DNA from: an uncultured Rhodospirillales bacterium
Lineage (GTDB): Bacteria > Pseudomonadota > Alphaproteobacteria > Rhodospirillales > UBA2165
DNA: 64,000 nt
Reading direction: 5' to 3'
NCBI GenBank assembly: GCA_913055735.1
Contig: CAJXKD010000002.1
Span: 472,150-536,149 of the forward strand
Shown here: in pieces, positions 7,722 to 58,777 of the stretch
Numbering within the stretch: position 1 is the stretch's first letter
Layout: each line of letters starts with the position of its first letter
Position numbers and translations under genes: made by a program
Notes under the pieces: generated by a model
What the model was told of the DNA's origin: nothing
The model's database searches: none
The model's input: only the letters and a program-made list of their open reading frames with translations

Positions 7722-10700
7722 GTGTCTTTTCGGGGTCGGGCGACAGTATACGGGAAAGGGACCGCGGTGGAGCGGGGCGTCTTCAAATATATCCTGCGCT
7801 ATAGCAGGCCGCAGCAAATCTTGCTGCTGACCCTTTCGGTTCTCTCGTTCCCCGTTTATTACGCGTCTCTGCAGCTCCCCAAGATGATCGTCGATGACGG
7901 TATCGGTGCGGAAGATTTCCCCCGCACGTTCCTCGGCACCGAGTTCGAGCATATTCCTTTTTTGCTGTTTCTCTGCGGCATCTTTCTGGCGCTGGTCTTC
8001 TTCAACGGCGCGTTCAAATACGTCATCAACGTCTTTAAGGGATCGAGCGGCGAGCGCCTGTTGCGCCGTCTCAGATACCAACTTATCTCCCGCGTTCTTC
8101 GCTTCCCGCTGCCGCAGTTCCGGAAAGTGTCGCAAGGCGAATTGGTGTCCATGATCACTGCCGAAACGGAGCCGCTCGGCGGTTTCTTCGGCGAAGGCTT
8201 GGCGACGCCTGTTTATCAAGGCGGAATGTTAGTCACCCTGATGACATTCATGTTCGTGCAGGATTGGAAGCTGGGTCTTGCGGCGGTCGCCCTGTACCCG
8301 TTTCAGGCTTGGCTCATTCCCAAGTTGCAGCGTCAGGTAAATGCGCTCGGCAAGGAGCGGGTGCGAACCGTTCGGCAGTTGTCGGAACGGATTGGCGAGG
8401 CGGTGTCCGGCGCGAGCGAGATTCATGCGAATGATACCGCGCAGTACGAATTGGCCGACTTTTCGTCCCGGTTGGGGCGCATCTATGCCATTCGCTTCGA
8501 GATTTATCTCAAGAAGTTCTTCATCAAGTTCCTGAACAACTTTCTTGCCCAGCTGACACCGTTCTTTTTCTACTCCATTGGCGGCATCCTAGTCATCAAC
8601 GGGCAGATCACGATCGGGGCGCTGATCGCAATCCTTTCGGCTTACAAGGATGTCTTGGCGCCGTGGAAAATTCTGCTCAACTACTATCAGCAGAAAGAGG
8701 ACGCTCGGATCAAATACGAGCAGATCATTGAACGCTTCGAACCTACCGGTCTGCTCGATGAAAAGATGCAGGAGGAAGAGCCGGACGATCTGCCCCGCTT
8801 CGAAGGGCGGCTCGTCGCATCGAACGTCGGCTGGTCCGAGGACGATGGCTTGAAAGTTCTCGACGGGGCGTCGCTCGCCATTGATCTTCCCAAGCACGTC
8901 GCGTTGACCGGCCCGGCCGGCGGCGGGAAGGGGGAGTTCTCGCAACTCCTGGCGCGGCTTTTGGTGCCAAGCAGCGGCCGTATAACGATCGGCGACTCCA
9001 ACCTTATTGAGTTGCCGGAATCGGTAACGGGACGGCGCATCGCCTATGTCGGGCAAAGCCCGTATATGTTCAATGCATCGATCCGCGATAACCTTCTGTA
9101 CGGTCTAAAGCATCGGGTGTTGCAGGAACCCGAATACGACGCCGACGCCCGCAAGGAGCGCGAGAAGGAGATTCTCGAATCCCAAAGATCTGGCAATAGC
9201 GTCTACGATCCTTCAGCGATCTGGGTGGATGTCGGCTCCGCAGGGACTGAAGATGACGAAGCCTTGGCGCACCGGATAAACGAGGTGCTTCGAACGGTGG
9301 GGCTTCGCCGGGACGTCTATCAGATGGGATTGCGCCGGACCATAGACCCGGTGGAGCGGCGGGCCTTGGCCAAGCGGGTGCTTGAGGCGCGCGCCAAGCT
9401 GAGGGAGCGTTTGCTCGACCCTGAGCTCGCCCAATTCGTCGAGACTTTCGATCCGGAAAAATATAATAGCAACGCGTCGGTTGCCGAAAATATCCTGTTC
9501 GGCACGCCGGTCGGCGACCAATTGGCGATCGAGAAGCTCGGGGAAAACAGCTATATGCTGCGTGTTCTCGACGAGGTTGGTCTTGCCCAGGCGTTTCTGG
9601 AAAAGGGCTTGCGGCTCGCGGAGATCATGGTCGATCTGTTCCGCGGCCTGTCACCGGATCACGAGTTCTTCGAGCGGTTCAGCTTCATCAGCTCTGACGA
9701 TTTGCCGGACTTTCAAGCTATTGTACAGCGCGCGGCCCAAAGCGGGCTGGATAGTCTTCCCGAAGACGAGCGGGCGAGACTTCGGGCGTTGCCGTTCCTA
9801 CTGATCCCCGCCCGCCATCACCTGGACATTATCGACGAGCCTTTCCAGCGCCAGTTGTTGGATGCGCGCCGCGCCTTTCATGCCAGCCTCCCCAAGGAAT
9901 TGGCGTCGGCTGTCGAATTCTTCGATGTCGAGAAGTACAACTCCGCGAGTTCCATCCAGGACAATATTCTGTTCGGCAAGCTTGCCCGGGAACGGGCCGG
10001 AAGCGCCGAGAAAGTCGGCGTCTTGCTTGCGGAGGCCGTGGATGAAGTCGGACTTCGCCAGGACATCCTCGAGCTGGGTCTCGACGTCAATGTCGGCATC
10101 GGCGGCAGTCGCTTGTCGGCGCTTCAAAGGCAAAAACTGGCCATCGCCCGAGGCCTGATGAAATGTCCCGATATTTTCATCCTGAACGAAGCGTTGTCGG
10201 GACTCGATCCGGACAACCAATCGTTGTTGCTCGAGAGCGTGTTGCGTGAGCAAGAGGGTCGGTCGGTCGTTTATGTGAACGGACCAACGGCGTCGACGGA
10301 CCATTTCGATCAGGTCATTTCCATCGCCGGTGGGCGAGTGGTCGATCATGGTGTGGGCGCGGCGCCGCCGCTCGAGGAAGCGCCCGCGGTTCCCGCGGAA
10401 GAGGTCGCCGGCGGCGGTTTTGGAGGCGAAATCGATGTTCTGGCGTCGCTTCCCTTGTTTCGTGGCATCGACCGCTCGCGTCTCAAACTGCTGGCCTTCG
10501 CCAGCCAGCGCCACATTTATGACCCGGGTCAGTACGTTATCCGGCAGGGCGAGGTCGGGGAAAACGCCTATATCGTCATTGACGGTGAGGCCGAAATCCT
10601 GCTCGACACGGGAGATGAGTTGAAAAAACTCGCGACATTGAAGCGCAACGACTTGTTCGGCGAACTGGCGCTCCTTTGCGAGGCACCGCGGACCGCCTCG

Positions 10701-11387
10701 ATCGTCGCCTCGACGCCCCTGACGGTTATGAGCATTTCCAAGGACGTTTTCATCAAGCTGGTCGCCGAAGATGTCGAGATGTCGGCGCGGGTGACCCGGT
10801 CTATTGCTGATAGCTTGGTGCGCACGACCGAGGATTTGAGCGAGGCGGCCCGGGTTCACGATTCCACAACGGACCTGCCCGACGCGCGGCTGTTCAACGA
10901 CCGGCTCCGGTATGCGGTTGCGCGCGGACGGCGTTTCCAGGAGGCCGCCGCGATCATTACGTTCAATCTGGAGCGATTCTTCGATGCGGACAGCGGCTAT
11001 TCGGAGGCCGACCGCGATGCTTTGTTAAAAGTCATCGCCGTACGCATCCGCGATGCCATCCGCGAAACAGACATGGCGGCGCGCCTTGATGACCTCGAGT
11101 TCGGGGTTCTCTTAAGTCCGGTCGACGGCAGCCTTTCGCATCAGGATATGGCGCAGCGTATCGCCGACAGTCTGTCTGCGCCTATCGATTTGCCCGAACG
11201 GTCGGTCCGGTTGACTGAAGCATGCGCGTTCAAGTTCCTCCAACTCGACGGCCGGGACGCGGAGGATCAGTTGCGGTCTTGTCGCAAAGGCGAAGGAAAG
11301 GTCATTCAAGTTTCCGGACGGGGGCAGGCGCCGGAACCGCGGCCAAAGGGACAAAATGGTGCCGGTGCCGATCGCAGGTCCACTTAG
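7722..11387 (+). CDS. ABC exporter-type TMD + degenerate/expanded NBD + cNMP-binding domain + degenerate GGDEF domain (1221-aa fusion)
   Basis: Six-TM type I exporter region. NBD-like motifs GPAGGGKGE, LSALQRQ and IFILNEALSGLD. cNMP phosphate-binding cassette FGELALLCEAPRTASIVA. GGDEF-like region with RETD-MAARL-DDLEF. The exact start is uncertain. Confidence 0.8.
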   Translation: MSFRGRATVYGKGTAVERGVFKYILRYSRPQQILLLTLSVLSFPVYYASLQLPKMIVDDGIGAEDFPRTFLGTEFEHIPFLLFLCGIFLALVFFNGAFKYVINVFKGSSGERLLRRLRYQLISRVLRFPLPQFRKVSQGELVSMITAETEPLGGFFGEGLATPVYQGGMLVTLMTFMFVQDWKLGLAAVALYPFQAWLIPKLQRQVNALGKERVRTVRQLSERIGEAVSGASEIHANDTAQYELADFSSRLGRIYAIRFEIYLKKFFIKFLNNFLAQLTPFFFYSIGGILVINGQITIGALIAILSAYKDVLAPWKILLNYYQQKEDARIKYEQIIERFEPTGLLDEKMQEEEPDDLPRFEGRLVASNVGWSEDDGLKVLDGASLAIDLPKHVALTGPAGGGKGEFSQLLARLLVPSSGRITIGDSNLIELPESVTGRRIAYVGQSPYMFNASIRDNLLYGLKHRVLQEPEYDADARKEREKEILESQRSGNSVYDPSAIWVDVGSAGTEDDEALAHRINEVLRTVGLRRDVYQMGLRRTIDPVERRALAKRVLEARAKLRERLLDPELAQFVETFDPEKYNSNASVAENILFGTPVGDQLAIEKLGENSYMLRVLDEVGLAQAFLEKGLRLAEIMVDLFRGLSPDHEFFERFSFISSDDLPDFQAIVQRAAQSGLDSLPEDERARLRALPFLLIPARHHLDIIDEPFQRQLLDARRAFHASLPKELASAVEFFDVEKYNSASSIQDNILFGKLARERAGSAEKVGVLLAEAVDEVGLRQDILELGLDVNVGIGGSRLSALQRQKLAIARGLMKCPDIFILNEALSGLDPDNQSLLLESVLREQEGRSVVYVNGPTASTDHFDQVISIAGGRVVDHGVGAAPPLEEAPAVPAEEVAGGGFGGEIDVLASLPLFRGIDRSRLKLLAFASQRHIYDPGQYVIRQGEVGENAYIVIDGEAEILLDTGDELKKLATLKRNDLFGELALLCEAPRTASIVASTPLTVMSISKDVFIKLVAEDVEMSARVTRSIADSLVRTTEDLSEAARVHDSTTDLPDARLFNDRLRYAVARGRRFQEAAAIITFNLERFFDADSGYSEADRDALLKVIAVRIRDAIRETDMAARLDDLEFGVLLSPVDGSLSHQDMAQRIADSLSAPIDLPERSVRLTEACAFKFLQLDGRDAEDQLRSCRKGEGKVIQVSGRGQAPEPRPKGQNGAGADRRST

Positions 11388-11415
11388 AGGCGAACAGTCA
11401 GAAGATTGAACGAAA

Positions 11416-11907
11416 TTGATGACGCAACCGCATAGATATCCATTTGAGCATCTCCGTGCCGACTATCTACGGGCAGGGGGCGGCGTCGTGCTGTGTTTGG
11501 CCCCCTTTGCCGTCGGGATGCCGTTGTCGGGCGGCGCGTGGGTTCTGTTGGGATGTGCGGCATTGTTTTTGCTCTACGGTCTGCGGACGGGAATGCGCCA
11601 AATGACCCGTGTTTGGGTCACTGATGACGGCATCGTTTCCGACGGCCCCATCAAAACGCGCATTGCCTGGGAAACGCTTGAAGATGTTCGGCTTTCTTAT
11701 TTCTCCACACGCCGCGGATCGGCGTCGGGCTGGCTGCAGCTTCGCCTCAAAGGAGCCGGTGCGACGATCCGGCTGGAATCGACGTTGACCGGTTTCGACG
11801 ATGTCGTGCGGTGCGCACTTCGCAAGGCTGGGGAACGAAGCCTTGCGTTGAACGCCGCGACGCAAAACAATATTTCGGCAATGGGACTTGTGACGGCGGA
11901 TGGCTGA
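11416..11907 (+). CDS. Hypothetical membrane protein (two N-terminal TM segments plus soluble C-terminal domain)
   Basis: 163-aa ORF with hydrophobic N-terminus. Its 3' end overlaps the ATG of the following ABC ATPase by 8 nt (11900-11907). No family recognised. Confidence 0.5.
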   Translation: MMTQPHRYPFEHLRADYLRAGGGVVLCLAPFAVGMPLSGGAWVLLGCAALFLLYGLRTGMRQMTRVWVTDDGIVSDGPIKTRIAWETLEDVRLSYFSTRRGSASGWLQLRLKGAGATIRLESTLTGFDDVVRCALRKAGERSLALNAATQNNISAMGLVTADG

Positions 11908-50879: not shown

Positions 50880-51320
50880 ATGACCGAAAATTCCATGCCC
50901 TACCGCCATCACCGGATTGTTCGCTGGGGAGAATGCGATCCAGAGGGGGTGATCTATACCCCGCGCGCCTTCGACTATCTCATGGAAGCCATCGAATCCT
51001 GGCACGAAGAGATCCTTGGCGTCCGCTGGATCGACCTCAAGCACAAGCGCAACATGGGTTCACCCACCGTCCGCACCGAATGTGAGTTTCTGGACGTGCT
51101 GCGTGCCGGGATGGAGGTCGATGTGGTGGTCCGGGTCGCCAAGCTTGGCAACGCCTCTGTGACGTTCAACATCGAGGTCGTCGATGCGAGCGGCCACCAC
51201 TATTTGCGGTTCAGCCATGTCAGCTGCTACATCACATTGGATGGGTTCAAGTCGATGACCGCCCCCGATGATTTCCGGGAACGGATCGAAGCCTATCAGC
51301 GCGCGTGCGGCGACGCCTAA
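50880..51320 (+). CDS. Hotdog-fold acyl-CoA thioesterase (4HBT/YbgC-like)
   Basis: RWGECDPEGVIYTPRAFDY is a catalytic Asp region typical of 4HBT-class thioesterases. Confidence 0.75.
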   Translation: MTENSMPYRHHRIVRWGECDPEGVIYTPRAFDYLMEAIESWHEEILGVRWIDLKHKRNMGSPTVRTECEFLDVLRAGMEVDVVVRVAKLGNASVTFNIEVVDASGHHYLRFSHVSCYITLDGFKSMTAPDDFRERIEAYQRACGDA

Positions 51321-51337
51321 CGGGAGGAGGATGCAAT

Positions 51338-51793
51338 ATGTCAAAAGAAGAATTTCAGTCGCTCATTCAGGAAGTGACCGGGGTGATTGCCGGAAAGCCG
51401 GTGGATGGCGCCTTGGCTGACGAATTGAACAGCAAATTTCCCGCCGGCGGCGACACGCTTAATGCGATCCGCTCGGCGTGCGAAACGGGCGTTGCCGAAG
51501 GCTGGATGTGCGAGAATGAGCACGGCGGCATCAAATTCGGCCGCGTGATCAAGGATGTCGACGGATTCAGCGTCGACGTCGTTCACATGGACAACATCGT
51601 TGGGCCGCACCACCGCCATCCCAACGGCGAGATCGACCTGATCATGCCGATTTCGCCGGACGCCAAGTTCGACGGCCACGGCGCGGGCTGGATGGTCTAT
51701 GGCCCGGACACGGCGCACAAGCCCACGGTATCGGATGGCGAGGCCTACGTGCTGTATCTGCTCCCGGGCGGCGCGATAGAGTTCACCCGTTAG
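51338..51793 (+). CDS. DUF4863 family protein (4-hydroxylaminobenzoate lyase-like)
   Basis: ATG at 51338 after gggaggagg. HHRHPNGEIDLIMP is a metal-binding-like motif. Family recalled from memory, not searched. Confidence 0.55.
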   Translation: MSKEEFQSLIQEVTGVIAGKPVDGALADELNSKFPAGGDTLNAIRSACETGVAEGWMCENEHGGIKFGRVIKDVDGFSVDVVHMDNIVGPHHRHPNGEIDLIMPISPDAKFDGHGAGWMVYGPDTAHKPTVSDGEAYVLYLLPGGAIEFTR

Positions 51794-51904: not shown

Positions 51905-52077
51905 GCGTGCGCGTGGCCGTGGCGGCCGCAGCCTCCTCGAACAACCTGAACGAAAACATCGGTTAACGTTTCAGCGGTAAATTTACAAGCCGTCGTCGGC
52001 GGCTGTCACGGGCGGCGTCTCGAGATTTGGCCGTTGGCCCGGAATCGTAGCCGCATGGTATTTGCAGGTTGTTCCGA

Positions 52078-52632
52078 ATGCCGCATTTCGAGCCTCAGGG
52101 GAGGGAGTATCCGACGGGCGTGTTGTACTGGCTTACCGGGCTTGCCGGTGCCGGGAAAACCACCCTGGGACACCTTCTTTTCGAGGAAATCCGTACCCGC
52201 AGGCCGCAGTCAGTGTTTCTGGACGGCGACGTGCTGCGCAAAGTGTTCGATATCGAAGGGGGCACAAAGCCGGCCGAACGGCTGCAGCTTGCGATGCGCT
52301 ACGCGCGGCTTTGCCGTGATTTGACGGCGCAGGACATCGATGTCGTCTGCTGCACGATTTCTCTTTTTCCAGAAGTGTGGAACTGGAACCGGGAAAATAT
52401 CCCCAGCTATCGGGAAATCTACGTCCGTGTTCCGATGGACGTGCTGAAGCAGCGTGACAAGAAAGGCCTCTATTCGTCAGCCGAATCGGGGGAGGTCCAA
52501 AATGTCGTCGGTGTGGATCTGCCTTTTAACGAACCAGTCAATCCCGATCTAATCGTCGACAACGACGGAACCTCCGATCCGGCAACGGTCGTATCGGGGA
52601 TCGTCTCGGCTTTAGGAGCCTGTCGGCCATGA
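52078..52632 (+). CDS. APS-kinase-family P-loop kinase; predicted cytidine diphosphoramidate 3'-kinase (Cj1415-like)
   Basis: GLAGAGKTTLG P-loop and LDGD motif, ~185 aa. Translationally coupled to the three partner enzymes. Confidence 0.7.
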   Translation: MPHFEPQGREYPTGVLYWLTGLAGAGKTTLGHLLFEEIRTRRPQSVFLDGDVLRKVFDIEGGTKPAERLQLAMRYARLCRDLTAQDIDVVCCTISLFPEVWNWNRENIPSYREIYVRVPMDVLKQRDKKGLYSSAESGEVQNVVGVDLPFNEPVNPDLIVDNDGTSDPATVVSGIVSALGACRP

Positions 52633-55019
52633 ATTTCTTCCCGCCGGTATTCGGAACCAAGGCCGAAACCCTTGCCGCATTGGGGCGCCATACGCATGAC
52701 TTCCGGGTTCCGGACACGTATTTCTTTACGGTCTCGGATTGGACACGGGATTCCGCTGACATCATACGAACAATCGGCACGCGATTTGCCGACCGCGTCG
52801 CCGTGAGAAGCAGCGCGGTGTCGGAGGATGGCAATACCGCCTCGCTGGCGGGTAAATACGTCAGCCGTTTAAATATCAACGCGCAATGCCCGGATGACTG
52901 TACCGACGCCATCGAGTGTGTCATCGCGTCCTATGACGGAAACGCCAGCGATCAAATTTTGATCCAGGAAATGGTCGGAGACGTAGAGGTTGCCGGTGTC
53001 ATCATGTCCCACAATTTGGATGACGGCGCTCCGTACTACGTGTTCGGTTACGATGATGAGTCTGGGCGGACCGATGCTGTCACCGGCGGGTTCGGCGTGC
53101 ATAAAACTGTACTCGTTCATCATGAGGCTGATGAGCGCCATATACGGTCGGTTCGAATCCAAAAGATGCATGCGCTGATACGTAATCTGGAGACCGTCTT
53201 CGGCCGGCGCCCCATGGACGTGGAGTTTGCGATAGACCGGTCGGGCGTTGCCCATGTCTTTCAGGTCCGGCCGATAACCACGTCGGAGAAGTGGTCGGCG
53301 GCGACCACTCGTTGCGTCAACCGAGAGCTTCCTCGTATGGAAAGTATTCTCAAACGTTACGCGGCACGCCGGCCGGGTCTTGCCGGGAGAACAAACATCC
53401 TTGGCAATATGCCCGACTGGAATCCGGCGGAAATCATCGGCTCCTCACCGAGACCATTGGCAACATCGCTATATCGGCATCTTGTCACCAAGGATGTCTG
53501 GCACATAGCACGTGCCGCGATGGGGTACCGGAAGCTGCCGGGTGTAGAACTGCTGGTGGAGATGGCCGGCCGGCCCTTCATCGATGTCCGCGCCAGCTTT
53601 AACTCGTTCTTGCCGAACGCGACGGATGCGGGCACGGCGGAAAAGTTGGTGGACAGCTGGTTGTCGCGGCTCGACCGGCATCCGGAATTTCACGATAAGA
53701 TTGAGTTCGAAATTGCCAGCACGGCGTACGACTTTCTTTTCGAACAAAACCAATCTGAACGCTATCCCGGCGTTCTCTCCACGGAGGCGTTGGCGGCCTA
53801 TAGAAACGACCTAAAGGCCCTAACCGCACGCAACCTTGCCTTAGATCGCAAAAGTTTTCTCGGAACTGCCGAGCGTCAGCTGGAGACGTTGCGATCACGG
53901 CGAACGATTTACGAGAAAGAGAACAAAGCCGATCCTGTGAACCTCCTCGGTCAGGTGGTGCTGCTGTTGAACGATTGCCGCCGCCTCGGCACTCAACCTT
54001 TTGCCGTTATTGCGCGCCAGGCGTTTATTGCAGAGGCGCTATTGCGGTCCGCCGTGGCCCGTGGCGCCATTTGCGATAACCGGGTTCTGGAGCTCAAAAG
54101 ATCTATAAACACGGTTTCGCGTGATATCTCACGCGATCTGAATTCAGTGTGCAAAGGCGCGTTGGATAAGTCCGTGTTTTGGCTCAACTATGGCCATCTC
54201 CGACCGGGATCTTACGACATTACCTCGCCCCGATATTCGGATCGGAAGAATCTGTTTGAGAATGGCGTTACCGCCGCCGATGCGCCGGAGACGGGGCCGT
54301 TTGTTTTGAACCCAGCAGAGGCGAGGGGCCTCGATGGGCTGTTGAAAGAGTCAGGATTGGACCACCTCACCGCGGCACAGCTTATCGAGTATGCCGGACG
54401 GGCGATACGGGGGCGAGAATACGGTAAGCTGATCTTTACCTGGAATTTGTCCGCTGCATTGGAAAACATTGCCGAATGGGGGAAGCTTCTCGGTCTCAGC
54501 CGAGACGACGTCTCGTTTCTCCCGGTTGACGAAATTCTTTCAATGGGGCGTCCGAGTTCCCTCGAAGATCGGGCCAGAGCTTTTGTGGATCAGATAGCGG
54601 CGGCCCGTGAGGACTTTGCTGATTCTCATGCGGTGAAACTGGGATATTTGATCCGGGACGTACACGATCTTTATGTCCTGCCTGTCCACCGAAGTGCGCC
54701 GAATTTTGTTACCAGCAAGCGAACAGAGGGCCGCGTGGCTCATTTAGAAAACAGAACCTCGGCGGCGGCCGATTTACGCGGTGCAATTGCATGCATCGAA
54801 AATGCGGATCCAGGATTCGACTGGATTTTTGCAAAGGGTATTTCCGGCTTGATTACCAAATTCGGTGGAATGAATTCACACATGGCTGTTCGTTGCGCGG
54901 AATTTGGGTTGCCCGCCGCGATCGGGTGCGGTGAAGATTTGTTCGACCGGATCGTCGGCGGCCCGTCAGCCGTGCTGGATTGCGCAAATAAAACGCTCGT
55001 TTCGGCAGATGAATACTGA
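52629..55019 (+). CDS. PPDK/PEP-synthase-like ATP-grasp plus swivelling phosphohistidine-domain enzyme; predicted L-glutamine kinase (Cj1418-like)
   Basis: N-terminal PPDK_N-like region (VRSSAVSEDGNTASLAGKY) and C-terminal PEP-utilizer motif GGMNSHMAVRCAEFGLPA, 796 aa. Confidence 0.7.
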   Translation: MNFFPPVFGTKAETLAALGRHTHDFRVPDTYFFTVSDWTRDSADIIRTIGTRFADRVAVRSSAVSEDGNTASLAGKYVSRLNINAQCPDDCTDAIECVIASYDGNASDQILIQEMVGDVEVAGVIMSHNLDDGAPYYVFGYDDESGRTDAVTGGFGVHKTVLVHHEADERHIRSVRIQKMHALIRNLETVFGRRPMDVEFAIDRSGVAHVFQVRPITTSEKWSAATTRCVNRELPRMESILKRYAARRPGLAGRTNILGNMPDWNPAEIIGSSPRPLATSLYRHLVTKDVWHIARAAMGYRKLPGVELLVEMAGRPFIDVRASFNSFLPNATDAGTAEKLVDSWLSRLDRHPEFHDKIEFEIASTAYDFLFEQNQSERYPGVLSTEALAAYRNDLKALTARNLALDRKSFLGTAERQLETLRSRRTIYEKENKADPVNLLGQVVLLLNDCRRLGTQPFAVIARQAFIAEALLRSAVARGAICDNRVLELKRSINTVSRDISRDLNSVCKGALDKSVFWLNYGHLRPGSYDITSPRYSDRKNLFENGVTAADAPETGPFVLNPAEARGLDGLLKESGLDHLTAAQLIEYAGRAIRGREYGKLIFTWNLSAALENIAEWGKLLGLSRDDVSFLPVDEILSMGRPSSLEDRARAFVDQIAAAREDFADSHAVKLGYLIRDVHDLYVLPVHRSAPNFVTSKRTEGRVAHLENRTSAAADLRGAIACIENADPGFDWIFAKGISGLITKFGGMNSHMAVRCAEFGLPAAIGCGEDLFDRIVGGPSAVLDCANKTLVSADEY

Positions 55020-55671
55020 AGAAAACGGCCTTCGTATCGGCGTAACCATGCGTGTAGCTGAGGCCTCGTCCTATCGCGAGACGCGGGATCTCTTGGCGCG
55101 GGATTGGGGAAAGTTTCTCGCGGCCGCTCTGCCGTCAGTGCCGTGGATGCCGATTCCCAATCGGGAAAACGACGTTCATACCATCGTTCGCGATTGGGGC
55201 TTGAACGGCTTTATCCTTACAGGTGGCGATGACTGGGGAACAACACCGGTACGTGATCGGACGGAAGAGACAATTCTGCAGATTGCCGAAGAGAATTCGT
55301 TTCCCTTGCTGGGCGTTTGCCGTGGCCTGCAAGCGATGCAAATTCGTTCGGGTGGCCGACTTGCCGCATGTCCCTGCGACGCCCATGTCGCGACCCAACA
55401 CACCGTCAGATTTGTTCGCCCGGTGGGCGGCTCCCGTTTCGGCGATGGTGAAATGACCGTCAACTCGTTCCATGCCAATGGCATTCTGGAAGGGGAATTG
55501 GCCGACGACCTTGAAGCCATTGCAATAAGTGCAGACGGATTTATCGAGGCTGCCTCCCACGGGAGATATCCCCAGCTGGGCGTCATGTGGCACCCGGAAC
55601 GAGCGCGAGCCTTTCACCCAACAGACGTCGGGCTGTTGCGCTCCTTGTTCGGTTTTAAAGAAACGCCATGA
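55009..55671 (+). CDS. Class I glutamine-amidotransferase-like hydrolase; predicted gamma-glutamyl-CDP-amidate hydrolase (Cj1417-like)
   Basis: Nucleophile elbow GVCRGLQ and a later MWHPE (His-Glu of the triad). Overlaps both neighbours. Confidence 0.7.
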   Translation: MNTEENGLRIGVTMRVAEASSYRETRDLLARDWGKFLAAALPSVPWMPIPNRENDVHTIVRDWGLNGFILTGGDDWGTTPVRDRTEETILQIAEENSFPLLGVCRGLQAMQIRSGGRLAACPCDAHVATQHTVRFVRPVGGSRFGDGEMTVNSFHANGILEGELADDLEAIAISADGFIEAASHGRYPQLGVMWHPERARAFHPTDVGLLRSLFGFKETP

Positions 55672-56423
55672 AGGGGATAATTCTTGCCGCGGGGCGAGGC
55701 AGCCGCATGGGGAGCGCGACCGATGACAGGCCCAAATGCTTTGCCAAGATAGACGGCCGCCGGCTCATCGACTGGCAAATTGCTGCACTTCGTGACGCGG
55801 CGCTCGACGACATCACAATCGTTGGCGGGTATCGACGGGAAATGCTTGCGCCATACGCGGATCAAGTTCTTGCGAACTGCCATTGGGCGGAGACCAACAT
55901 GGTCACCAGTTTGGTGTGTGCCGCCGACATTCTGCGAAGTCACGATTGCATCGTTTCGTATTCCGATATCCTTTACCACCCGGATATCGTACGCGCTCTC
56001 TCGGCGTCGAATGCGGATATCGCGATATCTTTCGATGAAGACTGGAGGTCGCTCTGGTCGGACCGTTTCACCGATCCGCGGAATGACGCCGAGGGTTTCG
56101 AGGCCAAAGACGGTTATCTCGTTTCAATCGGCGATCGGCCAGAAGACCTCGATGACGTTCGGGGGCAATATATGGGGCTTTTGAGAATTTCGCCGCGCGG
56201 TTGGCAAGAGATCGAGGGCTATTTGTCGACGCTCGACGGCGCGAGACGTGATTGTCTCGATATGACGGGGCTGCTCGCGGCCTTGTTGGATAAGGGCGTC
56301 GGAATTGAAACCATTGCCATTACGGGTAAATGGTGTGAAGTGGACAGCGCAGACGATTTGACCCTTTATCGCCATAGAATTTCGGAAGCGGCGGCGTGGT
56401 CCCATGATTGGCGGTGGAAGTAG
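55668..56423 (+). CDS. Nucleotidyltransferase (LicC-like); predicted CTP:phosphoglutamine cytidylyltransferase (Cj1416-like)
   Basis: GIILAAGRGSRMG...PKCF signature of sugar/small-molecule NTP transferases, 251 aa. Confidence 0.7.
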   Translation: MKGIILAAGRGSRMGSATDDRPKCFAKIDGRRLIDWQIAALRDAALDDITIVGGYRREMLAPYADQVLANCHWAETNMVTSLVCAADILRSHDCIVSYSDILYHPDIVRALSASNADIAISFDEDWRSLWSDRFTDPRNDAEGFEAKDGYLVSIGDRPEDLDDVRGQYMGLLRISPRGWQEIEGYLSTLDGARRDCLDMTGLLAALLDKGVGIETIAITGKWCEVDSADDLTLYRHRISEAAAWSHDWRWK

Positions 56424-56485
56424 GACGAGACGCGTGGCGGCTCATTCTCATGACAACTTAGATGAGTGAACCGCTCAGAGGCCGC

Positions 56486-57733
56486 TTAACGTTTCCAGCC
56501 GCAATCTTCAAGTATCCGGTCCGGCGTTAAATCCTGAATTTTCTTCTGTTGTGACGGCGTTAGACCGGTGCGCCAGGCATCGAGGCTGCCCTTCAACACT
56601 TCGTTGCTATGATGCTCATATTGGAGCTGCCGATCGTTTTTTAGCAGTTTCTCGTCAAAGCCGAAAAAATCTGCGATTTCCGCGAAATATCCTTCTGGAT
56701 CGGTCTTGAACTTTTCGAAGGTTACCAGCTTAACCTCCATACCGGAGGCGGGTGATCGTGCGAATTCATTCCAACCTGCTACCCAATCAGCCCATAAAGG
56801 TTCGTAGGCGTTGTCTATGTTCCAATCGATTTTCTTTTCGATGGGAAGGTCCTCATATCCGCGCGGCAGATGTTCGTAATACATGTGGCGGAGCTGCCAT
56901 GTCTGGTGCTCCAAATGATAAAAGAATGAAAAGAATGCTTGCCGAGGGTCGCGGAGATGGACCAGCATTTTCGACAGGTGAGACCGCGATAGGGTGTTCA
57001 GGTTGGCGTCGCTGGGCAGCGGGTGGCTCGTGCTCACCGCGGCGCCGCGCTGAAAATCGTCAAGTAGAACCGGAGCAAAAATGGACCGCGGAAAATTGTT
57101 CAACGTGGTCGGAAATATGCAGACGTCCAAACCGCATGCCATATAGTAAAGGATGTATTGTGAGGCCGCGCTCGGCATGGAGACCATAAGTATGGGCGGA
57201 ATACCGGCAGTGATCGCCGCCTCGCGCTTTTCTATTTGTTCGGGTAGGTTCTGGTAATTCAGACTAAGGAAGTCTTTGGGGCTGTAACTTCGTGCACCGT
57301 TCGCCGGACTCGATTTCGCCGATGACGAAAGGCCGTTACATTGGTCAACGAGGTGGTTTCGCAGTTTCTCATAAAGTTGCGCGTTGCTCTCGCCCCTAAG
57401 AAGCCTATCAAGGGTAAGTGCCTGATTGATACAATTGACGCTCAAATCCGGGCGGTCTGCTTTTAGTAGGCACAACGACTGCAAGAAAAATAGATAGTCG
57501 TTTGACTGATGTGTTTGCAGGAGCTTTTCCAGGATCCCGCTAAGGCTTCCGAAATTTCGGCTCGTAATCAGGTGGCGCAGGATCTCAGAGATATTTTCCG
57601 GAATATCTTCCAGGGGATTACCTGCTTCGAGAATGTCATGCGCCATTTCTTCAAAGGCTGATATCTCAAAATCGGGCATCATTGGCACAGAACTTTCGGA
57701 AGCCGGCAACCGAGAACAGGGGAATCGGGACAA
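56486..57733 (-). CDS. Sulfotransferase-fold protein with helical N-terminal domain; candidate phosphoramidate transferase
   Basis: ILMVSMPSAASQYIL (5'-PSB-like loop lacking Lys), MLVHLRDPRQAFFSFFYH (3'-PB motif), VTFEKFKTDPEGYFAEIADFFGF, KGSLDAWRTGLT. About 50% GC. Confidence 0.65.
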   Translation of the reverse strand: MSRFPCSRLPASESSVPMMPDFEISAFEEMAHDILEAGNPLEDIPENISEILRHLITSRNFGSLSGILEKLLQTHQSNDYLFFLQSLCLLKADRPDLSVNCINQALTLDRLLRGESNAQLYEKLRNHLVDQCNGLSSSAKSSPANGARSYSPKDFLSLNYQNLPEQIEKREAAITAGIPPILMVSMPSAASQYILYYMACGLDVCIFPTTLNNFPRSIFAPVLLDDFQRGAAVSTSHPLPSDANLNTLSRSHLSKMLVHLRDPRQAFFSFFYHLEHQTWQLRHMYYEHLPRGYEDLPIEKKIDWNIDNAYEPLWADWVAGWNEFARSPASGMEVKLVTFEKFKTDPEGYFAEIADFFGFDEKLLKNDRQLQYEHHSNEVLKGSLDAWRTGLTPSQQKKIQDLTPDRILEDCGWKR

Positions 57734-57792
57734 ACGGACTTATGATCAAACGCGGCCAGAAATAGGCTAGAAAGCGATTGTAAATATTATGT

Positions 57793-58566
57793 TTATTGCT
57801 TTCTCGCGCTCCAAGCACGGGTGAGGTAGCTGCAGGAAATGGTGCCCGATTTGGCTGTTTTCTCCTCAACGAAGCTCAGGAATTTCTTGAATTCCGACTC
57901 GCCGAGTTGTGCACGCACGTCATTAACGGATTTCCACACCCCGACGTAGCGTTCGGGGGACATTTCGATGGTGTGAGGCCCCTCCAAGAAAACGACGTCG
58001 TCAAAAAATCCGCATGATTGGAGACGCTCACTCAAACCTTCGGTGATCCCGCCTTTCCCTGAAGACTTCCGTTGAAGCCCGGGCTTCAAACTGTAAAGAA
58101 ATGCTTCGATCTCCTCCAACATGGGGTTGTCTTGGATGTGTCTCGGATTCCAGAGGCACACAAATCGCCCGCCCGGCTTTAAAATTCTATTGAATTCATT
58201 TACTGCCGCATCGAAATCCGCCCAGTGAAATGAGGAAGCCATGCTGACCCAATCGTACGTAGCGTCGGGCAGGCCCGTCTCCTCCGCGCGTCCAGTCAGC
58301 CATGTCACGGGAGTTGAAATGGACTGGGCTTTTCCGACCCGGCGCATGTCATCGTTTGGTTCAATGGCCGTAATCCGGCGAACGCCGAAATCGGCAAGCA
58401 TCGCGGTGAATATTCCGGTGCCGGCGCCGACATCGACCGCTTGGACTTCCTCTATTGGCCGATCAAGGAGTGCCAGTGTCGCTAAGACAACCGAGTGCGA
58501 ATAATCCGGCCTAAAACGCGCGTATGCATCGGCAAGCCCAGAAAAATCACCCAGGGGTAAGCTCAT
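57793..58566 (-). CDS. Class I SAM-dependent methyltransferase (Methyltransf_11-like)
   Basis: ATG at 58566 after gggaga. Motif I VDVGAGTGIF, then LKPGGRFV. Confidence 0.8.
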   Translation of the reverse strand: MSLPLGDFSGLADAYARFRPDYSHSVVLATLALLDRPIEEVQAVDVGAGTGIFTAMLADFGVRRITAIEPNDDMRRVGKAQSISTPVTWLTGRAEETGLPDATYDWVSMASSFHWADFDAAVNEFNRILKPGGRFVCLWNPRHIQDNPMLEEIEAFLYSLKPGLQRKSSGKGGITEGLSERLQSCGFFDDVVFLEGPHTIEMSPERYVGVWKSVNDVRAQLGESEFKKFLSFVEEKTAKSGTISCSYLTRAWSARKQ

Positions 58567-58777
58567 TTTTCTCCCACGCATCGACAGCCAAGACAACCGG
58601 GTATCCGCTAACAAATAGGGTGCTGTAGTTGAAAATTCGTAACTATTCGCCAGTGGATGAAAATTGCGGTGAGGCTGAGGATTTTTCCCACTGCGCGTTC
58701 GCTACGAGGCTGAATCCCCATACCTTCATGCGCGATTCCGGTATCTGTAGTGGACTCGTCCCGGACGGGACCACAAT

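What the first reader, a model, noticed from the sequence alone, without database searches (positions are those of the whole stretch)
56486..57733. Sulfotransferase-fold protein as candidate phosphoramidate transferase using a PAPS-like cytidine donor
The 415-aa protein has clear sulfotransferase-fold landmarks. These are a strand-loop-helix at ILMVSMPSAASQYIL (about 57158-57178) and the 3'-phosphate-binding motif MLVHLRDPRQAFFSFFYH (about 56922-56968). VTFEKFKTDPEGYFAEIADFFGF and the C-terminal KGSLDAWRTGLT are also present. The pathway product, 3'-phospho-CDP-amidate, is a structural analogue of PAPS: a 3'-phosphonucleoside with an activated 5' group. A sulfotransferase scaffold is therefore a logical catalyst for phosphoramidate transfer. 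The 3'-phosphate motif (Arg...Ser) is intact. The 5'-PSB loop lacks the conserved Lys (PSAASQ where sulfotransferases typically have PKSGTT), consistent with a different leaving group and nucleobase. As far as I know the C. jejuni MeOPN transferases (Cj1421/Cj1422) are not of this fold, so this would be a new transferase type. The helical N-terminal ~170 aa may select the acceptor.
Basis: inference. Interest (0 to 1): 0.78.

Follow-up and report, generated by a model that had tools for sequence, protein, structure and literature searches.

The report
Sulfotransferase-fold gene inside phosphoramidate cassette
A sulfotransferase-like enzyme that has lost the key sulfate-donor-binding lysine sits inside an imported six-gene cassette for making a PAPS-like cytidine phosphoramidate cofactor. 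Comparison with other genomes suggests such enzymes attach the phosphoramidate group to its target, a step never shown biochemically.

Summary
Window 56486-57733 (-) encodes a TPR + sulfotransferase-fold protein (probably 398 aa from ATG 57682). It passes Pfam Sulfotransfer_1, and its AF2 model (pLDDT 86.7) matches SULT1C1, SULT7A1 and StaL. The catalytic His220 and the 3'-phosphate Arg244/Ser252 are kept. The 5'-PSB Lys is Ser171, and the Arg of the RKG motif is Leu363.

The gene lies inside a low-GC3 island of six genes (52069-58614): Cj1415-, Cj1418-, Cj1417- and Cj1416-like genes plus a cluster-specific methyltransferase.

The protein's own family is rare and gives mixed co-occurrence. A 45%-identical ortholog keeps the methyltransferase neighbour. 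The sister subclade and four Lys-containing relatives show no phosphoramidate genes. None of 80 other Cj1418 loci carries this family.

Other sulfotransferase-fold clades do sit beside phosphoramidate cores in five phyla or classes. One clade has Asn at the Lys position and is linked to these genes in 17 of 19 loci, against 0 of 60 for Lys/Arg relatives (p = 2e-15). It is repeatedly fused to the Cj1415-type kinase.

Best reading (about 0.55): a phosphoramidate/MeOPN transferase using 3'-phospho-CDP-amidate. No biochemistry exists. The fold of Cj1421/1422 could not be checked.

The parts
56486..57733 (-). Candidate gene: TPR + sulfotransferase-fold protein. The ORF runs from TTG 57733 (415 aa). 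The likely true start is ATG 57682 (398 aa, equal to P0001).
57332..57682 (-). N-terminal helical TPR-like domain (P0001 residues 1-117), followed by a disordered linker (118-145).
   Evidence: AF2 secondary structure and pLDDT. TPR matches of the family profile. Foldseek TPR/OGT hits.
57155..57181 (-). Degenerate 5'-PSB loop, S-M-P-S171-A-A-S-Q-Y. Canonical relatives have T-L-P-K-S-G-S-x-Y.
57023..57025 (-). His220, invariant in all 45 aligned family members. By position it is the sulfotransferase catalytic base.
   Evidence: The role is inferred from sulfotransferase enzymology.
56918..56959 (-). 3'-phosphate-binding motif H-L-R244-D-P-R-Q-A-F-F-S252-F-F-Y. Arg244 and Ser252 are invariant. 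W253 and H255 of canonical members are replaced by F and Y.
56570..56596 (-). Remnant of the RKGxxGDW-type motif: L363-K-G365-S-L-D-A369-W370-R. Canonical members have R-K-G-x-x-D-E-W-R.
57793..58614 (-). Methyltransf_11 SAM methyltransferase directly upstream on the same strand. It belongs to the family found inside phosphoramidate clusters elsewhere. Its pairing with the ST is conserved in L002.
52069..52632 (+). Cj1415-type kinase (APS-kinase fold). NF004041/PRK05541 scores 177 bits against a cutoff of 127. apsK is below its cutoff.
52629..55019 (+). Cj1418-type L-glutamine kinase homolog (PPDK_N + PEP-utilizers). NF004508/PRK05849 scores 869 bits.
55009..55671 (+). Cj1417-type Peptidase_C26/GATase hydrolase. 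The best NCBIfam hit is gamma-glutamyl-CDP-amidate hydrolase, below its cutoff. The ORF can extend to 54904.
55668..56423 (+). Cj1416-type NTP_transf_3 nucleotidyltransferase. It is convergent with the ST gene, with a 62-nt gap.
52069..58614 (.). Six-gene island with GC3 of 0.58-0.67, against 0.69-0.81 in flanking genes. The ST and MT share the foreign composition of the four biosynthetic genes.

Best explanation
The protein is most likely the group-transfer enzyme of a horizontally acquired phosphoramidate (MeOPN-type) cassette. The four + strand genes would make 3'-phospho-cytidine-5'-diphosphoramidate, as Cj1418, Cj1417, Cj1416 and Cj1415 do in C. jejuni. The sulfotransferase-fold domain would bind this PAPS look-alike. 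Arg244, Ser252 and Lys364-Gly365 would hold the 3'-phosphate. His220 would deprotonate an acceptor hydroxyl, which would attack the terminal phosphorus and release cytidine 3',5'-bisphosphate, the counterpart of PAP. The adjacent methyltransferase would add the O-methyl group, either on the cofactor before transfer or on the product afterwards. The TPR domain would recruit the acceptor or a partner. What is shown: the fold, the motif pattern, the gene context, the island composition, and the comparative linkage of sulfotransferase-fold genes with phosphoramidate genes. What is inferred: the donor, the chemistry, the order of methylation and the acceptor.
For: (1) Fold and retained catalytic core. 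(2) The gene sits between the Cj1416-like gene and the cluster-type methyltransferase. All six genes share a low GC3 of 0.58-0.67, against 0.69-0.81 in the flanks. (3) The 45%-identical ortholog P0002 is followed by a gene 58% identical to the window methyltransferase. That gene also matches methyltransferases inside clusters L007, L011, L016, L017 and L042. (4) Differences from 39 Lys-containing relatives concentrate in the donor-binding motifs: K171S, S172A, W253F, H255Y, R363L and E369A. His220, Arg244 and Ser252 stay invariant. (5) In 78 Cj1418 loci from other species, 7 sulfotransferase-fold ORFs lie within 2 kb of the core, 6 of them within about 600 bp. Only 1 lies in the remaining 707 kb of flanks. 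Their loops read PNSGAS, PNAGSS, PRSGAL, TARGGTG or have no loop motif. (6) The Asn-loop clade is linked to Cj1415-1418 or cluster-methyltransferase genes in 17 of 19 metagenome loci. The figure is 0 of 60 for more distant relatives, whose aligned loops carry Lys or Arg. Fisher p = 2e-15. (7) Recurrent 476-494-aa fusions join a Cj1415-type kinase to a sulfotransferase-fold domain. They are also called as single genes by JGI. Their kinase domain passes NF004041/PRK05541 but not apsK. A canonical sulfotransferase in L128 sits beside a true Sat/CysC enzyme. (8) Four Lys-containing relatives of the window protein have no phosphoramidate neighbours. (9) The two families are homologous, and their loops align Ser171 with Asn and with Lys. 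(10) The transfer step is not biochemically defined even in C. jejuni (PMC12409886, PMC11800397).
Against: There is no biochemical evidence. The protein's own clade is tiny, and only two genomes link it to the cassette. The sister ARxxS subclade (P0003, P0126, P0127) shows other conserved neighbours, and no phosphoramidate genes appear in 10 kb on one side of P0003. None of 80 other Cj1418 loci holds this family. Most phosphoramidate clusters have no sulfotransferase-fold gene nearby, so other transferase types must exist. The window clade and the Asn clade changed different residues apart from the Lys. Losing the Lys, and the Arg of RKG, could also mean loss of activity. No acceptor-pathway genes lie nearby.
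Confidence: 0.55

Rival explanations
1. It is an ordinary PAPS-dependent sulfotransferase that decorates the same or another molecule and happens to travel with the phosphoramidate genes.
For: The fold, the catalytic His and the Arg/Ser 3'-PB motif are intact. Hundreds of close relatives have the complete PAPS motif set. The sister subclade carries Arg at the Lys position and is not seen with phosphoramidate genes. From established knowledge, Arg at that position is tolerated in several sulfotransferase families.
Against: Ser replaces the PSB Lys and Leu replaces the Arg of RKG. No Sat-type ATP sulfurylase was found in the window or in any phosphoramidate locus. Canonical relatives in L128 and L136 do have one nearby. 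The island's only APS-kinase-like gene is Cj1415-type. Lys-less sulfotransferase-fold genes, including kinase fusions, recur in phosphoramidate clusters.
Confidence: 0.2
2. It is a catalytically dead or non-transferase member. It could be a TPR scaffold, a cofactor-binding or sensor protein, or a hydrolase that recycles or destroys the cofactor.
For: Two donor-binding motifs are degenerate. A TPR domain suggests protein-protein contacts. The family is very rare.
Against: His220, Arg244, Asp245, Pro246, Arg247, Ser252, Gly365 and Trp370 are invariant across 45 sequences that are 21-46% identical to the window protein. That argues for a maintained active site. The Asn-loop clade shows the same kind of change under clear conservation, and in fusion with the kinase.
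Confidence: 0.12
3. It uses the cytidine cofactor but transfers to a non-glycan acceptor, such as a protein side chain, a lipid or a small metabolite. The product would not be a MeOPN-decorated polysaccharide as in Campylobacter.
For: No glycosyltransferase or capsule genes lie within 10 kb on either side. The island holds only six genes. The TPR domain is typical of protein or peptide recognition.
Against: Nothing argues directly against it. This is a variant of the best explanation, and its probability is largely contained in that explanation. The acceptor cannot be determined from sequence.
Confidence: 0.25

Closest known systems
Cytosolic and natural-product PAPS sulfotransferases (Pfam PF00685; SULT1C1, SULT7A1, SULT1A1, StaL, Teg12/14)
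   Same: Same fold: Foldseek E 3e-6 to 1e-4, TM up to 0.63 on the target. Same catalytic His position. Same 3'-PB Arg/Ser motif. The donor nucleotide would also carry a 3'-phosphate.
   Different: The PSB Lys is Ser and the Arg of RKG is Leu. An N-terminal TPR domain is added. The gene context is phosphoramidate rather than sulfate activation. The proposed donor is cytidine-based with a P-N group.
TPR-sulfotransferase subfamily with LPKSGS / HVRDPRQA / FRKGxxDEWR motifs (P0004, P0128-P0170; uncharacterised)
   Same: These are the closest sequence relatives, 21-30% identical. The profile gives E down to 1e-73 and 520 proteins below 1e-30. Many share the TPR N-terminus.
   Different: They keep all the PAPS-type residues. 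In the four contexts examined they have no phosphoramidate genes.
Asn-loop sulfotransferase-fold clade of phosphoramidate clusters
   Same: Sulfotransferase fold with the PSB Lys lost. It sits next to the Cj1416/Cj1415 genes and the same methyltransferase family. It is homologous to the window family by hhalign (93.8% probability, E 1.7e-7).
   Different: It is a separate clade, with no phmmer hit to the window protein at E below 0.01. It keeps RKGISGDW, has no TPR domain, is often fused to the Cj1415-type kinase, and is often present in two or three copies.
C. jejuni MeOPN transferases Cj1421/Cj1422 (CJJ81176_1421 and _1435)
   Same: They have the same proposed role: transfer of the (methyl)phosphoramidate from the Cj1415-1418 product to an acceptor. 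They are assigned by knockouts (PMC11800397, PMC3907429). They too sit beside two methyltransferase genes.
   Different: They are 592-603 aa (PMC13317227), against 398 aa here. My recollection that they are DUF563/GT61-like comes from memory only.

Membership tests
Sulfotransferase fold / Pfam Sulfotransfer_1 (PF00685) | Score above the Pfam gathering threshold | tested here: met
   29.7 bits against a cutoff of 22, E 5.4e-7. The match covers only profile positions 91-243.
Sulfotransferase fold / Pfam Sulfotransfer_1 (PF00685) | Three-dimensional fold like solved PAPS sulfotransferases | tested here: met
   AF2 pLDDT 86.7, above 90 in most of the catalytic domain. 52 PDB matches at E <= 0.001; all 50 listed are sulfotransferases.
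Sulfotransferase fold / Pfam Sulfotransfer_1 (PF00685) | 5'-phosphosulfate-binding loop with Lys (PKSGTT type) | tested here: not met
   The loop reads MPSAASQ, with Ser171 at the Lys column. 97% of canonical relatives have Lys.
Sulfotransferase fold / Pfam Sulfotransfer_1 (PF00685) | 3'-phosphate-binding Arg...Ser motif | tested here: met
   R244 and S252 are invariant in 45 sequences.
Sulfotransferase fold / Pfam Sulfotransfer_1 (PF00685) | Catalytic base His | tested here: met
   H220 is invariant. Its catalytic role is inferred from position.
Sulfotransferase fold / Pfam Sulfotransfer_1 (PF00685) | C-terminal RKGxxGDW-type motif | tested here: inconclusive
   The window has LKGSLDAWR. Lys, Gly and Trp are kept. 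Arg (100% in canonical members) is Leu and Glu is Ala.
Sulfotransferase fold / Pfam Sulfotransfer_1 (PF00685) | PAPS-dependent sulfuryl transfer | not testable with these tools
   This needs an enzyme assay.
Phosphoramidate (MeOPN-type) biosynthesis cassette, Cj1415-Cj1418 | All four cofactor genes present and adjacent | tested here: met
   PRK05849 scores 869 bits and PRK05541 scores 177 bits, both above cutoff. The C26 hydrolase's best hit is gamma-glutamyl-CDP-amidate hydrolase, at 94.7 bits against a cutoff of 250. An NTP_transf_3 gene is present. The same gene order recurs in about 70 loci.
Phosphoramidate (MeOPN-type) biosynthesis cassette, Cj1415-Cj1418 | The candidate gene belongs to the same unit | tested here: met
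   It lies between the Cj1416-like and methyltransferase genes and shares their GC3. The methyltransferase partner is conserved in L002.
Phosphoramidate (MeOPN-type) biosynthesis cassette, Cj1415-Cj1418 | The candidate's own family co-occurs with the cassette in other genomes | tested here: inconclusive
   The PSAxS subclade shows it in 2 of 2 contexts, one of them only a partial methyltransferase. The ARxxS subclade shows it in 0 of 3, on short contigs. The family is absent from 80 other Cj1418 loci.
Cj1421/Cj1422 MeOPN transferase family | Sequence or fold similarity to Cj1421/Cj1422 | not tested
Asn-loop sulfotransferase-fold clade linked to phosphoramidate clusters | Close sequence membership (NLPN[AS]G[AS]S loop, RKGISGDW) | tested here: not met
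   There is no phmmer hit at E below 0.01. Only profile-level homology was found. The window protein is a separate clade with an analogous change.

The most novel reading that the evidence does not exclude
Sulfotransferase-fold enzymes have been recruited several times, in at least three or four separate clades with Ser, Asn, Tyr/His or no loop residue at the Lys position. They would act as phosphoramidyl or methyl-phosphoramidyl transferases that use 3'-phospho-CDP-amidate exactly as sulfotransferases use PAPS. If so, MeOPN-like P-N decorations exist far beyond Campylobacter, in Alphaproteobacteria, Gammaproteobacteria, Verrucomicrobia, Desulfovibrio and Dehalococcoidia. The window protein would be one TPR-bearing version acting on an unknown, possibly non-glycan, acceptor.
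Probability: 0.5. Interest if true: 0.85.

Novelty: new variant of a known kind. Interest (0 to 1): 0.72.

Why it matters
The enzyme chemistry that attaches the phosphoramidate group is still undefined, even in C. jejuni; there the step is assigned only by knockouts (PMC11800397, PMC12409886). A 2019 review states the modification is known only from Campylobacter (PMC6429109). Yet more than 3000 Cj1418-type kinases exist across bacteria and archaea.

A soluble ~400-aa sulfotransferase-fold candidate would make the step directly testable in vitro. So would the natural kinase-transferase fusions. If confirmed, the sulfotransferase fold would gain a new reaction, P-N phosphoryl-type transfer from a cytidine analogue of PAPS. 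The loss of the PSB lysine would then serve as a sequence marker for finding such enzymes and the molecules they modify.

Tried and rejected
- The word-index homolog search found only 4 relatives. The exhaustive profile search was needed to see the family.
- I searched 80 Cj1418 loci for the candidate's own family and found none.
- I asked whether the commonest extra genes in those clusters could be hidden sulfotransferase folds. The 405-430-aa family is not one (hhalign probability 0.04). The Formyl_trans_N-like and sulfatase-like families are different folds by Pfam.
- L077's sulfotransferase lies 6 kb from the core and was treated as background.
- Contexts of P0125 and P0126 were too short to be informative.
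- The terminator and promoter scans showed nothing above the shuffled expectation.
- Three Raushel-lab papers on Cj1415, Cj1416 and Cj1418 are not held.
- No paper links the sulfotransferase fold with phosphoramidate transfer.
- I could not obtain Cj1421/1422 sequences, so the claim of a different fold is untested.
- No docking was possible, because model coordinates are not exposed.
Full report
**Observation.** The minus-strand ORF 56486-57733 is real. It can start at TTG 57733 (415 aa). Public gene calls, and the ATG-ATG at 57682, give 398 aa (P0001). I use P0001 numbering below.

Pfam Sulfotransfer_1 is passed (29.7 bits against 22, E 5.4e-7), but the match covers only the C-terminal two thirds of the domain. 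Sulfotransfer_3 is sub-threshold and NCBIfam has nothing. An AF2 model from 4 sequences reached pLDDT 73.8. A model from 45 sequences reached 86.7, with values above 90 in most of the catalytic domain. All 50 listed Foldseek PDB hits are PAPS sulfotransferases: SULT1C1, SULT7A1, SULT1A1, SULT1D1, StaL and Teg12/14. Residues 1-117 are helical and TPR-like. Residues 118-145 are disordered.

**Surroundings.** The candidate lies inside a compact set of six genes:
- 52069-52632 (+) is an APS-kinase-fold protein. It passes NF004041/PRK05541 (177 bits against 127) but not the true APS-kinase model TIGR00455.
- 52629-55019 (+) passes NF004508/PRK05849 (869 bits) and has PPDK_N and PEP-utilizer domains.
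- ~55009-55671 (+) is a Peptidase_C26 protein. Its best NCBIfam hit is gamma-glutamyl-CDP-amidate hydrolase, below that model's cutoff.
- 55668-56423 (+) is an NTP_transf_3 nucleotidyltransferase.

These are the counterparts of Cj1415, Cj1418, Cj1417 and Cj1416, which in C. jejuni make CDP-phosphoramidate 3'-phosphate (PMC11800397). On the other strand, convergent with the Cj1416-like gene, lie a Methyltransf_11 gene (57793-58614) and then the candidate.

All six genes have GC3 of 0.58-0.67. The genes on both sides have 0.69-0.81. So 52069-58614 looks like one imported unit that includes the sulfotransferase-fold gene. No glycosyltransferase or capsule genes lie within 10 kb on either side. 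The large ORFs I scanned in the rest of the window are unrelated housekeeping genes.

**The protein's own family.** The word-index search found four relatives. An exhaustive profile search found 1731, of which 520 scored below 1e-30. Almost all share only the catalytic domain, and many have their own TPR N-terminus.

The relatives read in full carry a complete sulfotransferase motif set: T-L-P-K-S-G-S, an invariant His, H-V-R-D-P-R-Q-A-x-L-S-W and F-R-K-G-x-x-D-E-W-R. The window protein belongs to a tiny clade of about eight proteins with a changed loop. The window and P0002 (45% identical) have P-S-A-A/G-S. P0003, P0125, P0126, P0127 and P0129 have A-R-A/S-A/G-S.

I looked at the 37 positions that are at least 80% conserved in 39 canonical members. 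The clade differs at K171, S172, F197, W253, H255, R363 and E369. These fall in the PSB loop, the residues just after the 3'-PB motif, and the RKG...EW motif. His220, Arg244, Asp245, Pro246, Arg247, Ser252, Gly365 and Trp370 stay invariant.

I add that the Arg of RKG is also lost. The changes concentrate in the donor pocket while the catalytic core is preserved. That fits a changed donor better than simple decay.

**Co-occurrence of this family.**
- P0002's 2.5-kb contig shows the gene followed by a partial ORF 58% identical to the window methyltransferase. That ORF also matches the methyltransferases embedded in phosphoramidate clusters L007, L011, L016, L017 and L042. The ST-MT pair is therefore conserved.
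- The A-R-x-x-S subclade has other conserved neighbours: a GT9/41-like protein and an unknown ~210-aa protein. No phosphoramidate genes appear in the 10 kb visible beside P0003.
- Four Lys-containing relatives (P0004, P0128, P0132, P0137) have unrelated neighbours.
- Among 80 Cj1418 loci from other species, none has this family.

On its own, this is a weak and mixed result.

**Other sulfotransferase folds in phosphoramidate clusters.** A broader family HMM plus Pfam found sulfotransferase-fold ORFs immediately beside the conserved core in six of those loci:
- L006 (Desulfovibrio), 25 bp upstream of the kinase.
- L008 (a gammaproteobacterium), 69 bp from the Cj1415-like gene.
- L011 (Dehalococcoidia), 79 bp upstream.
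- L075 (Rhodospirillales), 63 bp after the Cj1416-like gene.
- L017 (a gammaproteobacterium), 1.7 kb away, a single ORF joining a sulfotransferase and a Methyltransf_11 domain.
- L040 (a Verrucomicrobia single cell), with two copies, one fused to the Cj1415-like kinase.

Seven such ORFs lie within 2 kb of the cores (268 kb searched). One lies in the remaining 707 kb of flanks. Their loops read L-P-N-S-G-A-S, L-P-N-A-G-S-S, S-P-R-S-G-A-L or T-A-R-G-G-T-G, or have no recognisable loop.

**Reciprocal test.** I scanned metagenome contigs with the L008/L040 alignment.
- The 19 closest loci all have Asn at the Lys column, with Tyr in L093 and His in one copy in L100. In 17 of the 19 they are flanked by Cj1416-, Cj1415-, Cj1418- or Cj1417-like genes or cluster-type methyltransferase genes. 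The two exceptions are contigs under 2.1 kb.
- The 60 more distant loci show 0 of 60; where their loop could be aligned it carries Lys or Arg. Fisher p = 2e-15.
- Fusions of 476-494 aa joining the kinase and the sulfotransferase-fold domain recur in seven of these loci. JGI calls them as single genes, named 'adenylylsulfate kinase-like enzyme'.
- Their kinase domains pass PRK05541 but not apsK, like the window kinase. A canonical sulfotransferase in L128 sits next to a true bifunctional sulfate adenylyltransferase/APS kinase.
- Some loci carry two methyltransferases and two or three sulfotransferase-fold copies (L094, L100). This echoes the two methyltransferases and two MeOPN transferases of C. 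jejuni.
- hhalign shows the window family and this clade are homologous. It aligns Ser171 with Asn and with the canonical Lys.

**Interpretation.** The kinase that makes the PAPS-like cofactor is physically fused to a sulfotransferase-fold domain whose sulfate-specific Lys is gone. This happens in clusters that have no sulfate-activation genes. The most economical reading is that these domains use the kinase's product, 3'-phospho-CDP-amidate, as their donor.

The window protein is an independent clade. It shows the same context and the same kind of change, with Ser in place of Lys. I therefore favour it as the transferase of its cassette, at about 0.55. In this model His220 is the base, Arg244, Ser252 and Lys364-Gly365 hold the 3'-phosphate, and cytidine 3',5'-bisphosphate is the leaving group.

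The tight pairing with the methyltransferase suggests a transfer-plus-methylation module. I speculate that methylating the cofactor first would make the transferred group uncharged, like the sulfuryl group. The order cannot be decided here. The acceptor is unknown. The TPR domain and the absence of glycan genes leave a protein or small-molecule target open.

**Rivals.** The protein could be an ordinary PAPS sulfotransferase (about 0.2), or a non-catalytic or other-function member (about 0.12). Neither is excluded, because nothing here measures chemistry.

**Comparison with what is known.** In fold it is a sulfotransferase. As a family member it fails the defining PSB-Lys feature and only partly keeps RKG. 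In proposed role it parallels Cj1421/Cj1422. Those proteins are 592-603 aa (PMC13317227) and are assigned by knockouts only (PMC11800397, PMC3907429). Their fold could not be compared here.

I found no paper connecting the sulfotransferase fold to phosphoramidate transfer. As of August 2025 the decoration step was still described as yet to be elucidated (PMC12409886).

I rate this a new variant of a known kind: a known fold and a known pathway, with a new pairing and probably a new reaction. Interest is fairly high because the hypothesis is now directly testable with soluble proteins.

Noticed in passing
L040:9834-11279; L094:413-1843; L095:791-2224; L096:4754-6184; L097:93-1565; L100:3517-4998; L103:1634-3118: Natural fusions of a Cj1415-type kinase (APS_kinase fold, passing PRK05541) with a Sulfotransfer_1 domain that has Asn at the PSB-Lys position. 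They sit inside phosphoramidate clusters of marine Verrucomicrobia-like contigs. JGI names them only 'adenylylsulfate kinase-like enzyme'.
   Followed up: yes
L089:2297-4504; L090:2240-4468; L092:675-2639; L094 (three copies): Tandem double sulfotransferase-fold proteins of 654-742 aa. Some clusters hold up to three ST copies plus two methyltransferases, reminiscent of Cj1419/1420 plus Cj1421/1422.
   Followed up: partly
L017:5880-7271 (-): A single 463-aa ORF combines a Lys-less Sulfotransfer_1 domain (residues 91-242) and a Methyltransf_11 domain (residues 321-371). It lies 1.7 kb from a phosphoramidate core in a 4.7-Mb gammaproteobacterial MAG.
   Followed up: partly
e.g. L025:8675-9987, L030:8682-9991, L035:8723-10004, L074:8690-9966, L078:8698-9992: A pair of Formyl_trans_N-like genes (~190 and ~244 aa) sits between the Cj1415- and Cj1418-like genes. 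The family occurs in 26 of the loci (Pseudomonas, Alteromonas, Aeromonas, Cohnella and others), often with DegT and FdtA/WxcM sugar genes. It is the commonest extra gene in these clusters, and its role is unknown.
   Followed up: partly
L038:14338-15633, L050:14297-15553, L060:12896-14113, L064:12901-14118, L066:15965-17179, L081:15995-17227 and others (alignment A5): A conserved 405-430-aa family lies directly after the Cj1415-like gene in 9 loci. It has only a weak GDSL/SGNH Pfam hit and is not sulfotransferase-like (hhalign probability 0.04). It could be another candidate transferase or modifying enzyme.
   Followed up: partly
L066:13679-15463, L081:13640-15484, L067:3966-5711, L038:16424-18196: Sulfatase/EptA-like ~590-614-aa genes (PF00884) lie inside or beside some phosphoramidate clusters. 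In the two Rhodospirillaceae/Rhodospirillales loci (L066, L081) they lie between the Cj1416- and Cj1415-like genes.
   Followed up: no
L001:434-2020 and 11203-11760; L087:1302-1421; L088:2296-3033 with L001:5557-6186: The A-R-x-x-S sister subclade of the candidate has its own conserved neighbours: a GT9/41-like protein and an unknown ~210-245-aa protein. In L001 they sit in a cluster with radical SAM/SPASM, a class III aminotransferase, a GHMP kinase and two methyltransferases. No phosphoramidate genes are visible.
   Followed up: partly
window 52069-58614: The six cluster genes have GC3 of 0.58-0.67, against 0.69-0.81 for flanking genes. The ST gene has the lowest GC (0.50). This points to a horizontally acquired island.
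   Followed up: yes
window 7722-11387 (+): A 1221-aa ORF joins an ABC exporter (ABC_membrane + ABC_tran) to a cNMP-binding domain and a GGDEF diguanylate cyclase domain. This is an unusual architecture.
   Followed up: no
window 50880-51793 (+): A 4HBT thioesterase and a PnbB-like 4-hydroxylaminobenzoate lyase lie directly upstream of the cassette on the same strand. Their GC3 is host-like, so they are probably not part of the island.
   Followed up: partly
L071, L084, L085; P0084: Cj1418-type kinases with Cj1417/1416-like neighbours also occur in archaea (Woesearchaeota and Micrarchaeia MAGs, and Methanocalculus). More than 3183 homologs exist overall, although the modification is reported only from Campylobacter.
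   Followed up: no
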